From IMG/VR virus record IMGVR_UViG_2724679293_000007, positions 32,001 through 96,000 of that record: 64,000 bases of DNA. One strand, 5' to 3'. Numbering within the stretch: position 1 is the first letter of the stretch; every line of letters starts with the position of its first letter. Under the pieces are notes generated by a model that had not been told where the DNA came from, searched no databases, and worked only from the letters and a program-made list of their open reading frames with translations. Origin of the DNA: a virus (Duplodnaviria > Heunggongvirae > Uroviricota > Caudoviricetes). A program made the translations under genes and the position numbers. Below, in pieces: positions 30,413 to 32,639 of the stretch.

Positions 30413-30658
30413 ATGCAATCTGATTTTTTACAGTTAGCGATCGCTTTTGCAGGATATGTTTGTATTGGCTTCTGTGTATACATGATCAGCCGAAAAATGC
30501 TTGTCGATATCGACCGCAAAGAACGAGCAGAGGAGATCTTAGTATGGATTTTCTTTGGCGCGGTCTGGCCATTAGGGATCATGTTTGCTGCAACATTTCT
30601 TCTGATGTGGATATTCACCCTTCCAGGTGATTTCTATAGAAAAAAAGCCAGACATTGA
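30413..30658 (+). CDS. Small membrane protein (81 aa from the internal Met)
   Basis: Two hydrophobic helices; start placed after the repL stop. Confidence 0.4.
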   Translation: MQSDFLQLAIAFAGYVCIGFCVYMISRKMLVDIDRKERAEEILVWIFFGAVWPLGIMFAATFLLMWIFTLPGDFYRKKARH

Positions 30659-30781: not shown

Positions 30782-30988
30782 ATGCTTAGCATACGTAGAT
30801 TAGCCTCTTACCGACCAAAAGGTCAAGGAGAAGCAGGCTATGAAGCAGCAAAAAGCGATGTTAATCGCTCTGATCGTCATCTGTTTAACCGTCATTGTGA
30901 CGGCACTGGTAACGAGGAAAGACCTCTGCGAGGTACGAATCCGAACCGGCCAGACGGAGGTCACTGTCTTCACAGCCTACGAATCTGA
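30782..30988 (+). CDS. mok-like overlapping reading frame of the hok locus
   Basis: ORF overlapping the hok-like gene in another frame and ending 7 bp before its stop, as in hok/mok loci. Confidence 0.4.
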   Translation: MLSIRRLASYRPKGQGEAGYEAAKSDVNRSDRHLFNRHCDGTGNEERPLRGTNPNRPDGGHCLHSLRI

Positions 30989-30995
30989 AAGGTAA
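30840..30995 (+). CDS. hok: Hok/Gef-family type I toxin (51 aa)
   Basis: MKQQKAMLIALIVICLTVIVTALVTRKDLCEVRIRTGQTEVTVFTAYESEER; AAGGAG Shine-Dalgarno 8 nt upstream; conserved LTRKxLCExR...AYES pattern. Confidence 0.8.
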   Translation: MKQQKAMLIALIVICLTVIVTALVTRKDLCEVRIRTGQTEVTVFTAYESER

Positions 30996-31314
30996 GAGAC
31001 CTGGCGGGGAGTGATCCCCGCCACTCTTCGTGTGTCTGGTAACCTCAATGCACCCTTTTCTCCCCAATAGTGTAAAACACAATGAAGTAGAAGGAGTTAT
31101 TTCACATCATGCAAAGATTCAGACCATATCTCCCAATAGCCTTCGCGACATGATGACTTTCAGAAATATCTAGCTGTTAACAAAATTCCATACTTGCTTT
31201 GCTAATACCACCTAGATTATATATGGAAAAATACACCTAAAACTTAAACAAATTATATCCACAACAAACATCCATCTATTAGGATTAAAATTAATTTAAT
31301 AATAAATAATACAA

Positions 31315-31341
31315 CACCGGTTCATTTTCTAACAAACCGGT
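31315..31341 (-). terminator. Rho-independent terminator of the MazG-like gene
   Basis: caccggtt-loop-aaccggtg stem followed on the - strand by a T-rich run. Confidence 0.5.
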
Positions 31342-31349
31342 GGGCACCA

Positions 31350-32420
31350 TTATTGGAATAACTTACTGATTACATTAAAAACATTAAGGGCGTTACTTGC
31401 CACACTAGACATCTTGGCTGAATTTTTTTCGATTGAGTCAAGAACACTTTCGACTTCCGATAAAGTTCTTCTGCTATCTGCATCTTTTCCTGAGTCTATC
31501 GCATCTTTAATTGCAGATATAGCAGACTCTAAATTCTCCTTAAACTCACCTGTCGTCTCATCCTTCAAGAGAAGTTCTAACTCTTGTTTAAGTTTTTCCA
31601 ATGATGCTCTTTTCTCATCAGTTTTACTAATCTTCCCTGAATAACTGACACAAACACATTCTCTTTTATTGCAGACAGGACAACCATTTAGATAATAACT
31701 TTCAAACGCCTCGCCAAGATCATCATCTTTAAAAATAATCCCCCATAAAGAAAACAACCAAGCATATATATCAGCACACTCTTCATGAAGATTTTCTTTG
31801 TTGTAATTTTTATCTTCAATTGATTTAGCATAAGCCTCTTGCAACTCACCCAACTCTTCGAATAACCTGGATGAATGATAAAACCCACCAAAAGTAGACC
31901 AAATGGTTCTATTCGACGGATAGATATCATTAATCATTCGTGGCGCATAAGGCGGAAATTGCATAGGTTTAATAGCGTTATATTTATTGAAAAGCTCATC
32001 TTTAATTCCTTTTGCGCTTCTTATTTTCTCTGGCTTTCTGTGTGTTTGAGAACAGGAACAAGGCGCCCCTAAGCAATAAGGACAGCAACTAGGGAATTTT
32101 TTATAAAATGCTTCCTGTGGTTGTATTTCAAGTTTATCACAGATTGCAAAAAGCCAAGACAATGCTTCTATATAGGTATTTTTTAATAATTCTTTATCCT
32201 GATTACCATCACGAATAAACTCACGTGTTAAATAAGCTGTTTTCCTTGTCAGATAAGAGTACATATACTCAAATGATTTTTCTTCATTTTTTTTGCTGTA
32301 AATACCTACAATAATATTGCTCATATCATTGATACGTAACATGACATTCCTCTTAAATAAGCCAATACTTCCTAGAACCATATATGCTTCGACAAAGATT
32401 AACGGACATCTTGCCTTCAC
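31350..32420 (-). CDS. Tandem MazG/HisE-like all-alpha NTP-pyrophosphohydrolase-like protein with two Cys clusters (about 330-356 aa)
   Basis: Repeat 2 has EELGELQEAYAKS...EECADIYAWLFSLW then CPVCNKRECVCV; repeat 1 is analogous with CCPYCLGAPCSCS; strongly AT-rich. Confidence 0.5.
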   Translation of the reverse strand: MKARCPLIFVEAYMVLGSIGLFKRNVMLRINDMSNIIVGIYSKKNEEKSFEYMYSYLTRKTAYLTREFIRDGNQDKELLKNTYIEALSWLFAICDKLEIQPQEAFYKKFPSCCPYCLGAPCSCSQTHRKPEKIRSAKGIKDELFNKYNAIKPMQFPPYAPRMINDIYPSNRTIWSTFGGFYHSSRLFEELGELQEAYAKSIEDKNYNKENLHEECADIYAWLFSLWGIIFKDDDLGEAFESYYLNGCPVCNKRECVCVSYSGKISKTDEKRASLEKLKQELELLLKDETTGEFKENLESAISAIKDAIDSGKDADSRRTLSEVESVLDSIEKNSAKMSSVASNALNVFNVISKLFQ

Positions 32421-32639
32421 AAACTTTGACGCTACATAAATTTAACCATGTGCATACTAAATATTTAAGGTAGAAAAGTATAGGAGTATTTATTAATAGG
32501 TAACTGTTAGTTTACACTCACTTCATACCAGAGTATTTACAAGATGTTATTTTACTCTATTCGCTAGGCGGTGGAATGCGGTTGTATCAAGGGGAGGTAA
32601 ACCTCCCCCGAAGAAGATTAAAAGTACAAGGGATAACAC

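What the first reader, a model, noticed from the sequence alone, without database searches (positions are those of the whole stretch)
31350..32420. AT-rich protein with tandem MazG-like domains each followed by a Cys cluster
The protein contains two repeats resembling the all-alpha MazG/HisE NTP-pyrophosphohydrolase helix pair (EELGELQEAYAKS...EECADIYAWLFSLW). Each is followed by a Cys-rich motif (CCPYCLGAPCSCS and CPVCNKRECVCV), and the protein ends in a C-terminal coiled coil. It sits, with its own terminator, in an AT-rich island between the hok locus and the structural genes, where from memory P1 has the rlf/pmg genes. Nucleotide-hydrolysing proteins of this kind occur in phage defence and counter-defence, for example dNTP or alarmone depletion.
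Basis: partly seen in the sequence, partly recalled or inferred. Interest (0 to 1): 0.6.

Follow-up and report, generated by a model that had tools for sequence, protein, structure and literature searches.

The report
Tandem MazG-like zinc-knuckle prophage cargo gene
A rare, AT-rich, single-gene cassette in a P1-like phage-plasmid encodes a predicted nucleotide-pyrophosphate-cleaving enzyme of unusual build, whose relatives ride in accessory slots of several prophage types and are fused to immune-type domains, so it is probably an untested phage-conflict (most likely anti-phage defence) protein.

The parts
31068..32604 (.). Single-gene AT-rich cassette (1,537 bp, 33.9% GC) inserted between hok and bplB
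   Evidence: BLASTN against 'empty-site' P1-like plasmid NZ_CP148988.1: homology ends at 31067 and resumes at 32605, and only 9 bp lie between in the empty site. GC is 0.339 against 0.492 in the flanks.
31350..32342 (-). Coding sequence of the 330-aa MazG-like protein (stop codon 31350-31352)
   Evidence: dN/dS is about 0.04-0.05 against the P2-like and lambdoid copies.
32348..32354 (-). Shine-Dalgarno AAGAGGA, 5 nt before ATG 32342
   Evidence: Read directly from the sequence.
32097..32342 (-). Half 1 (residues 1-82): degenerate, non-catalytic MazG-like helical module. It keeps Y15, N19 and W63 but has basic residues where half 2 has acids
   Evidence: Alignments, model helices 4-82 at pLDDT about 90, hhalign against half 2.
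32046..32096 (-). Cys cluster 1 (residues 83-99; KFPxxCPYC-x4-CxC; C87, C90, C95, C97), an inferred zinc knuckle
   Evidence: Invariant in A1 and present in 124-126 of 130 representatives. Zinc binding is inferred, not shown.
32016..32045 (-). Low-confidence linker (residues 100-109)
   Evidence: pLDDT below 60, with residues 100-103 below 50.
31695..32015 (-). Half 2 (residues 110-216): catalytic-type MazG module
31845..31859 (-). EELGE (E162, E163, E166): first metal-binding motif
   Evidence: Invariant in A1. Present in 117, 122 and 118 of 130 representatives respectively.
31770..31781 (-). EECAD portion E188-x2-D191: second metal-binding motif, 21 residues after E166
   Evidence: Invariant in A1. 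Present in 119 and 120 of 130 representatives.
31644..31694 (-). Cys cluster 2 (residues 217-233; CPxC-x4-CxC; C221, C224, C229, C231), an inferred zinc knuckle
   Evidence: Invariant in A1 and present in 128-129 of 130 representatives.
31353..31634 (-). C-terminal helical domain (residues 237-330; four predicted helices), poorly conserved in sequence
31305..31342 (-). Terminator-like hairpin (12-bp stem) plus T-rich tail, directly after the stop codon
   Evidence: Pattern scan. This is a consensus match only.
32343..32604 (-). 262-bp AT-rich upstream region belonging to the cassette. No strong sigma-70 match, no P1 C1 operator and no late-promoter box
   Evidence: negative results.
32591..32609 (-). 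Hairpin GGGGAGG-TTTA-CCTCCCC after the bplB stop, straddling the cassette junction
   Evidence: Read from the sequence. Junction mapped.

Best explanation
The gene is a horizontally acquired, autonomously expressed accessory gene (moron) of a P1-like phage-plasmid. It encodes a stand-alone enzyme of phage-host nucleotide conflict, most likely a defence or superinfection-exclusion protein that benefits the lysogen. The two halves fold into one intramolecular pseudo-dimer of the all-alpha NTP-pyrophosphatase type. Half 2 supplies the Mg2+-binding acids E162/E163/E166/E188/D191. Half 1 supplies a complementary, mostly basic, non-catalytic face. Each half is stapled by a four-Cys knuckle that presumably binds zinc. 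The single composite site would bind a nucleoside triphosphate and cleave it between the alpha and beta phosphates, giving NMP and pyrophosphate. The best candidates are a pyrimidine dNTP (dUTP or dCTP), given the dimeric-dUTPase-like geometry and the deaminase fusions. The variable C-terminal helical domain would control activity or oligomerisation, possibly in response to an infecting phage. The result would be depletion or sanitation of a nucleotide pool that a superinfecting phage needs. Shown here: the fold, the conserved catalytic-type residues, the duplication, the cassette boundaries, purifying selection, the mobile-element contexts and the fusion partners. Inferred: zinc binding, enzymatic activity, substrate, regulation and the defence phenotype.
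Against: There are no functional data of any kind. The window protein itself hits no PADLOC model and falls below Pfam's MazG threshold (14.5 bits against 22). Prophage accessory slots also hold counter-defence and metabolic genes. Some contexts are plainly non-immune: metabolic neighbours in Pseudomonas and a position downstream of nrdAB. A constant module with swapped output domains, including GGDEF and kinase, is the signature of a sensor rather than an effector. A subgroup has lost the acids yet keeps the fold and the cysteines. In the P1-like and P2-like elements the gene points the same way as the late structural operon, so late lytic expression is not excluded. I made no neighbourhood-enrichment statistic with a background control.
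Confidence: 0.4

Rival explanations
1. Nucleotide-sensing switch. The tandem MazG/zinc-knuckle unit is mainly an input module that binds, and slowly hydrolyses, a nucleotide alarm or signal, and so controls an output domain. In relatives the output is TIR, CHAT, deaminase, kinase, GGDEF or a phosphorylase. In this protein it would be the C-terminal helical domain, through oligomerisation, partner binding or membrane action, or the 2TM protein in the subclade that has one. This is still an immune or conflict role, but hydrolysis acts as the timer rather than the weapon.
For: One constant module is joined to at least six unrelated output domains at either end. An N-terminal input followed by a C-terminal GGDEF or kinase is the canonical signalling layout (established knowledge). 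Half 1 keeps Y15, N19 and W63, which parallel Y141, N144 and W195 of half 2, but has basic residues instead of acids, so it could be a second, non-hydrolytic nucleotide pocket. A stand-alone subgroup has lost the catalytic acids but keeps all eight Cys. A 2TM partner, which is effector-like, occurs in one subclade.
Against: The catalytic pentad is conserved in about 90% of members, including most fusions. The C-terminal domain is the least conserved part of the protein and has no recognisable effector fold. No ligand is known.
Confidence: 0.2
2. Counter-defence or host-takeover enzyme that serves the phage. It would hydrolyse an immune signalling nucleotide or (p)ppGpp, as the phage MazG-like protein Atd1 does, or skew host nucleotide pools in favour of the phage during lytic growth.
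For: A phage MazG-like pyrophosphatase, Atd1, depletes (p)ppGpp and protects against TIR-STING toxicity (bioRxiv 10.1101/2022.06.09.495361). The gene is always found on temperate phages in the close clade. In P1-like and P2-like elements it has the same orientation as late genes.
Against: The wider family is chromosomal in many phyla and is fused to TIR, CHAT and kinase domains, which is not the pattern of known anti-defence proteins. It is absent from the 19 matching records in the GenBank phage collection and has no significant structural relative among catalogued viral proteins. There is no link to P1 lytic regulatory sites. It is much larger and more elaborate than single-domain phage MazG proteins.
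Confidence: 0.15
3. Ordinary house-cleaning enzyme. It would be a dimeric-dUTPase-like or dCTPase-like nucleotide sanitiser that helps the phage-plasmid replicate by keeping dUTP or other non-canonical dNTPs out of its DNA, with no conflict role.
Against: Sequence identity to dUTPases is about 7%, and no dUTPase family hit was found. The rarity (2.5% of P1-like plasmids), the variable-slot location, the extra zinc knuckles, the C-terminal domain, the 2TM partner and the immune-type fusions are not expected of a housekeeping enzyme.
Confidence: 0.15
4. Non-enzymatic protein. It would be a morphogenetic or structural accessory replacing pmgF, or a DNA- or RNA-binding zinc-finger regulator that merely retains a MazG-like scaffold.
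For: It occupies the position of pmgF ('putative morphogenetic function') directly after bplB and in the same orientation. It has two Cys4 clusters.
Against: There is no similarity to pmgF or to any structural protein. The catalytic-type acids are invariant. Homologues occur in non-structural contexts and in bacterial chromosomes.
Confidence: 0.03

Closest known systems
MazG-type all-alpha NTP pyrophosphohydrolases (Pfam PF03819; e.g. Sulfolobus SSO3215 PDB 1vmg, Archaeoglobus AF_0060 2p06, E. coli MazG 3cra)
   Different: Half 1 has lost the metal-binding acids. Each half ends in a CPxC-x4-CxC cluster that was not seen in the matched solved structures. There is an added C-terminal helical domain of about 95 aa. 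The window protein itself scores below Pfam's MazG cut-off.
Dimeric (all-alpha) dUTPases, e.g. staphylococcal phage Dut PDB 5myd, Campylobacter jejuni 1w2y, Leishmania 2yay
   Different: About 7% sequence identity and no dUTPase family hit. dUTPases have no zinc knuckles and no C-terminal bundle. Substrate was not tested.
Nucleotide-depleting anti-phage enzymes (dCTP deaminase, dGTPase; PUA-Calcineurin-CE-HAD system and its rare MazG-containing variants)
   Same: The proposed logic is the same: starve the infecting phage of dNTPs. Relatives are fused to cytidine/dCMP deaminase domains. MazG-like domains are reported to replace the dNTP-cleaving Calcineurin-CE effector in some PUA-HAD systems (PMC12871103).
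   Different: No homology to the validated enzymes (no PADLOC hit). No PUA or HAD partner is present here. No phenotype is known.
Atd1, a phage MazG-like (p)ppGpp pyrophosphatase (anti-TIR-STING counter-defence)
   Same: A MazG-family enzyme encoded by a phage and acting in phage-host conflict.
   Different: Atd1 is described as a MazG catalytic domain from a Pectobacterium phage (PcCB7V), identified in a screen of phage genes chosen for proximity to NTase genes. The protein here is a tandem, zinc-knuckled, three-part protein on temperate elements, and its wider family is fused to TIR itself.
P2 non-essential AT-rich morons (old, tin, fun/Z, orf30) and prophage defence hotspots (Rousset et al. 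2022, PMC9122126)
   Same: A small, AT-rich, high-turnover locus between conserved phage genes. A 79%-identical homologue sits exactly in the S-V (orf30) slot of a P2-like phage.
   Different: The S-V slot and the P1 repL-bplB slot are not among the hotspots validated in that study. The protein family is not mentioned there.

Membership tests
MazG / all-alpha NTP pyrophosphohydrolase superfamily | All-alpha four-helix-bundle core fold | tested here: met
MazG / all-alpha NTP pyrophosphohydrolase superfamily | Metal-binding signature E-x2-E-(12-28)-E-x2-D | tested here: met
   E163-x2-E166, 21 residues, then E188-x2-D191 in half 2. Invariant in 23 homologues and at least 90% conserved in 130 representatives. 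Not present in half 1.
MazG / all-alpha NTP pyrophosphohydrolase superfamily | Significant sequence match to the family model (Pfam PF03819 gathering score 22 bits) | tested here: inconclusive
   The window protein scores 14.5 bits, E=0.045, below the cut-off. However, 29 of 130 family members match at E<=1e-3, best 4.3e-11. The family profile hits 1vmg at E=8.4e-5, and phrog_2245 'NTP pyrophosphohydrolase' hits at E=4.3e-6.
MazG / all-alpha NTP pyrophosphohydrolase superfamily | NTP to NMP + PPi hydrolytic activity | not testable with these tools
   Requires an enzyme assay.
Dimeric dUTPase family | A single chain of two helical modules forming one active site | tested here: met
Dimeric dUTPase family | Sequence membership (dUTPase motifs or family model) | tested here: not met
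Known anti-phage defence systems (PADLOC-DB 2.0.0) | Match to a model of a known or candidate defence protein | tested here: not met
   The only hit is a spurious coiled-coil match to LmuB at E=0.018. Fusion relatives match through their TIR, kinase or deaminase parts only.
Known anti-phage defence systems (functional definition) | Confers resistance to phage infection when expressed | not testable with these tools
   Requires plaque or burst assays. No report was found in the held literature.
Prophage moron / variable-slot cargo | A discrete insert with deviant composition between conserved phage genes, absent from most relatives | tested here: met
   Cassette 31068-32604 against the empty site. 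GC 0.339 against 0.492. Present in 17 of about 680 P1-like plasmids. The slot is a published variable region.
Cys4 zinc knuckle / zinc ribbon | Four conserved Cys in a CxxC...CxC arrangement that coordinate Zn2+ | tested here: inconclusive
   The pattern and conservation are met twice, and the loops are modelled with pLDDT about 75-93. Metal coordination geometry could not be checked because no coordinates were available, and metal content needs measurement.

The most novel reading that the evidence does not exclude
The tandem MazG/double-zinc-knuckle unit is a previously unrecognised nucleotide-binding and nucleotide-hydrolysing control module of prokaryotic immunity. It would be comparable in role to SAVED/CARF sensors or STAND NTPase switches. 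It is plugged into TIR, CHAT, deaminase, phosphorylase, kinase and GGDEF outputs across many phyla. The P1 cassette would encode its minimal stand-alone, prophage-borne form: a protein that detects a phage-derived or infection-induced nucleotide (for example a modified dNTP or dUTP) and then shuts down infection.
Probability: 0.2. Interest if true: 0.8.

Novelty: new variant of a known kind. Interest (0 to 1): 0.55.

Why it matters
If the protein protects lysogens, it would be the first experimentally approachable MazG-type defence enzyme. Two recent studies list MazG among predicted defence domains (PMC13092281, PMC12871103), and the first states that none of its predicted domains has been validated. 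The gene is a 1-kb single-gene system in E. coli on a well-understood phage-plasmid, so it is easy to test. It would add a pyrophosphohydrolase route to the nucleotide-depletion theme alongside dCTP deaminases and dGTPases. It would also flag the P1 repL-bplB slot and the P2 S-V slot as places to look for further single-gene systems. The fusion catalogue (TIR, CHAT, deaminase, kinase, GGDEF, phosphorylase) suggests a widespread module whose biochemical logic, weapon or sensor, is open. If it turns out to be a dUTPase-like house-cleaner, the finding is ordinary.

Tried and rejected
- Foldseek against viral predicted structures (BFVD) gave nothing at E<=1e-3.
- PADLOC, NCBIfam and Pfam on the window protein alone gave only sub-threshold hits. 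The homology became clear only with a family profile.
I used A1 instead, so distant multidomain relatives are under-sampled.
- I looked for the 2TM partner gene, or a remnant of it, in the window and in other loci by tblastn and found none. The P1 gene is therefore truly stand-alone.
- I looked for a P1 C1 operator (up to 4 mismatches) and the LP23-type late-promoter box inside the cassette and found none. The sigma-70 scan gave no convincing promoter upstream of the gene, so timing of expression is unresolved.
- I considered the GTG-32420 start and rejected it on the Shine-Dalgarno, the homologue N-termini and the RefSeq call.
- I considered that the cassette is a mobile unit with defined ends, and rejected it. 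Only the ORF is shared with copies in other phages, and I noticed no terminal repeat in the printed junction sequences (no repeat search was run).
- Literature searches for a described MazG defence protein of this build, or for this P1 gene, found none. Burroughs et al. 2015 (PMC4678834), which may discuss MazG in conflict systems, is not held.
- I did not compute a controlled defence-neighbourhood enrichment. The contexts are a sample of about 15 loci.

Full report
**What is at the coordinates**

The biologically likely start is the ATG at 32342, for three reasons:
- It is preceded by AAGAGGA at a 5-nt spacing.
- RefSeq annotates the identical 330-aa product WP_000944483.1 in several plasmids.
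- Most of the 22 aligned homologues begin within one residue of this position.

All residue numbers below use the 330-aa numbering. The surrounding DNA is AT-rich, at 33-36% GC against about 50% in the flanks. A terminator-like hairpin with a T-rich tail follows the stop codon.

**The replicon and the slot**

The window is a P1-like (IncY-type) phage-plasmid. The gene lies between the lytic replicon (kilA, repL, a small ORF, hokD) and the late genes bplB, pmgG, 21, 22 and 23. P1 itself has rlfA, rlfB and pmgF at this position. This is one of eight published highly variable, low-GC regions of P1-like phage-plasmids (PMC9603915).

Other elements carry different genes there. JL22 has rlfAB and pmgF. 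One plasmid has a 198-aa unknown. SJ46 has Lom and a 210-aa unknown. One plasmid has nothing between hokD and bplB.

Comparison with that 'empty site' maps the insert exactly. Window 31068-32604 is 1,537 bp at 33.9% GC, and it replaces 9 bp. It contains this one gene, 262 bp upstream and 282 bp downstream.

The cassette is rare and nearly clonal:
- 17 of about 680 matching plasmids carry it.
- 19 of 5,426 complete E. coli genomes carry it, all on plasmids and at 99.6% identity or more.
- None of the 19 matching GenBank phage records carries it.

**Anatomy of the protein**

Halves 1 and 2 are homologous. BLASTP gives E=4e-6 over 81 aa. A family profile of half 1 against half 2 gives hhalign probability 93.7%, E=1.9e-7.

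Each half ends in CPxC-x4-CxC. All eight cysteines are invariant in 23 close homologues and present in 124-129 of 130 divergent representatives.

Only half 2 has the MazG metal-binding signature: E162/E163-x2-E166, then 21 residues, then E188-x2-D191. It is invariant among close homologues and at least 90% conserved family-wide. Half 1 has lost the acidic residues; positions 40 and 59 there are mostly K or R across the family. Both halves keep a parallel Y...N and W (Y15/N19/W63 and Y141/N144/W195).

Residues 237-329 are predicted as four helices. They are poorly conserved and modelled at moderate confidence.

**Fold**

- The full AlphaFold model has pLDDT 83 and pTM 0.70.
- By sequence, the family profile hits 1vmg at E=8.4e-5, and below it 2p06, 5ie9, 2q73 and 2gta.
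- 29 of 130 family members hit Pfam MazG, best E=4.3e-11.

The protein is best described as an intramolecular, asymmetric pseudo-dimer with one predicted active site, as in dimeric dUTPases.

**It is a working gene**

Against the P2-like and lambdoid copies (75-77% nucleotide identity), synonymous sites are saturated (pS about 0.73-0.75) while pN is about 0.13. This gives dN/dS of about 0.04-0.05.

**Family size and spread**

A word-indexed search found only 28 clusters at 90% identity. A full HMM scan of 1.84 billion representatives with the family profile found far more: 995 clusters at E<=1e-3, 446 at E<=1e-10 and 101 at E<=1e-30. Among the 130 aligned members, 81 are 321-380 aa, the same build as here. 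Another 23 are 260 aa or shorter; at least some of these are the tandem unit alone and others are fragments. A further 18 are longer than 380 aa. Reference genomes with relatives span Pseudomonas, Aliivibrio, Celerinatantimonas, Chloroflexota, Acidobacteriota, Bacteroidota, Patescibacteria and an archaeon.

**Contexts of close, stand-alone homologues**

- Between gpS and gpV of P2-like phages, at 79% identity. This is the variable orf30 slot (PMC6823313).
- At the end of a Providencia prophage, after the tail-fibre genes.
- In the nin region of a Pantoea lambdoid prophage.
- As an inverted insert between replication and nin genes of another lambdoid prophage.
- Beside the integrase of a P2-like prophage.
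- In a P2-like prophage of Celerinatantimonas, between an AAA_15/AAA_21 ATPase and gpD.
- Beside a 1,234-aa RT-like protein.
- In small chromosomal islets in Pectobacterium and Pseudomonas.
- Once directly downstream of nrdAB.

Only the ORF is conserved between phage types; the flanks are unrelated. In the 52-55%-identity subclade, a protein of 248-255 aa with transmembrane helices at both ends always follows, 33-75 nt downstream, in three unrelated contexts. It has no PADLOC hit and no Pfam hit on record. The window has no copy or remnant of it.

**Fusions**

The same tandem module is joined to:
- TIR at the N- or C-terminus (11 of 130 members).
- Cytidine/dCMP deaminase.
- Ser/Thr kinase.
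- GGDEF.
- CHAT.
- A nucleoside-phosphorylase (PNP_UDP) domain, as a marginal hit at 23.4 bits, just under Pfam's 25.1-bit cut-off.

The TIR parts match PDC-S66, ThsB, SAVED-TIR and RT-TIR models. The kinase parts match PD-T4-6 and mad6. These would be expected of any TIR or kinase domain, so they are supportive only. Most fusions retain the catalytic pentad. A small stand-alone subgroup has replaced the acids with K/R but keeps all eight Cys.

**Expression**

The cassette contains no C1-operator-like site and no LP23-type late-promoter box. No convincing sigma-70 promoter was found either. The hairpin after bplB straddles the cassette junction. Timing of expression is therefore unresolved.

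**Interpretation**

The shown facts fit an accessory gene of phage-host nucleotide conflict. These facts are the cargo behaviour in several prophage types, the AT-rich autonomous cassette, purifying selection, a conserved catalytic-type site, immune-type fusion partners, and an optional membrane partner.

I rank a lysogen-protecting (d)NTP pyrophosphohydrolase first, at about 0.4. The dimeric-dUTPase-like geometry and the deaminase fusions point to pyrimidine dNTPs, but that is inference.

The main rival, at about 0.2, is that the module is a nucleotide-sensing and nucleotide-hydrolysing switch. The swapped output domains, especially GGDEF and kinase, and the acid-less subgroup argue for that.

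Counter-defence in the manner of Atd1 and plain dUTPase-like house-cleaning each get about 0.15. A non-enzymatic role is unlikely.

**Prior knowledge**

RefSeq already names the protein 'MazG-like family protein'. MazG is listed among predicted but unvalidated defence domains (PMC13092281). It is also noted as an alternative to a dNTP-depleting effector (PMC12871103). I found no paper describing this tandem, zinc-knuckled architecture, its fusion spectrum, or this P1 cassette. One possibly relevant paper, Burroughs et al. 2015, is not held. The finding is therefore a new variant of a known kind, experimentally untested but easy to test.

Noticed in passing
L006:11038-11805, L007:11080-11826, L011:11077-11823, L024:5157-5924: A conserved protein of 248-255 aa with predicted transmembrane helices at both ends and a helical middle lies 33-75 nt downstream of the MazG-like gene in one subclade. 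It occurs in three unrelated genomic contexts, so this is probably a two-gene module. It has no PADLOC hit and no Pfam hit on record, and it is absent from the window.
   Followed up: partly
L037, L038, L057, L058 (CHAT); L034 (PNP_UDP_1, marginal); L032 (TIR); L035 (deaminase); L040 (GGDEF); P0145/P0167/P0169 (kinase): Distant relatives carry the tandem MazG/zinc-knuckle module fused to a wide range of immune-type or signalling output domains. Two further multidomain relatives (L045 at 401 aa, L048 at 445 aa) have C-terminal regions with no Pfam hit.
   Followed up: partly
P0111, P0112, P0116, P0121, P0122, P0131, P0136, P0146 (proteins): A stand-alone subgroup of 340-355 aa has K/R in place of the catalytic acids of half 2 but keeps all eight cysteines. 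These are probably pseudo-enzymes that retain the scaffold.
   Followed up: no
window 32591-32609 (-): The hairpin GGGGAGG-TTTA-CCTCCCC that follows the bplB stop codon straddles the cassette junction at 32604/32605: four G of one arm are backbone and the rest is cassette. In the empty-site plasmid a different sequence (CCCCCGAAGGAGC, preceded by a T-run on the minus strand) follows bplB.
   Followed up: partly
window 30840-30995 (+) and 30413-30658 (+): A hok-type toxin ORF (51 aa; RefSeq calls it hokD) and a small predicted membrane ORF (81 aa in RefSeq) lie between repL and the cassette. Both are also present in the empty-site plasmid, so they belong to the backbone variant and not to the cassette.
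   Followed up: partly
L066:3766-4362 (WP_000268407.1, 198 aa); L067:3766-4398 (SJ46 gp016, 210 aa) and L067:2760-3275 (Lom): Other P1-like elements carry different uncharacterised genes in the same slot, with the same orientation as bplB. The slot behaves as a cargo hotspot whose contents are mostly unknown.
   Followed up: no
L063:3155-9029: A 35%-identical homologue (P0028) lies directly downstream of the ribonucleotide reductase genes nrdA and nrdB. This is a possible link to dNTP metabolism rather than to a mobile element.
   Followed up: no
L064:2552-6256: A 1,234-aa protein with a weak reverse-transcriptase (RVT_1) hit lies next to homologue P0020. Its size and type are reminiscent of defence-associated RTs.
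   Followed up: no
L002:4320-5024 (P1 rlfA): P1's own occupant of this slot, rlfA, is annotated as a DUF3800 protein 'possibly associated with lytic replication'. Its real function appears to be untested, so the slot's reference content is itself poorly understood.
   Followed up: no
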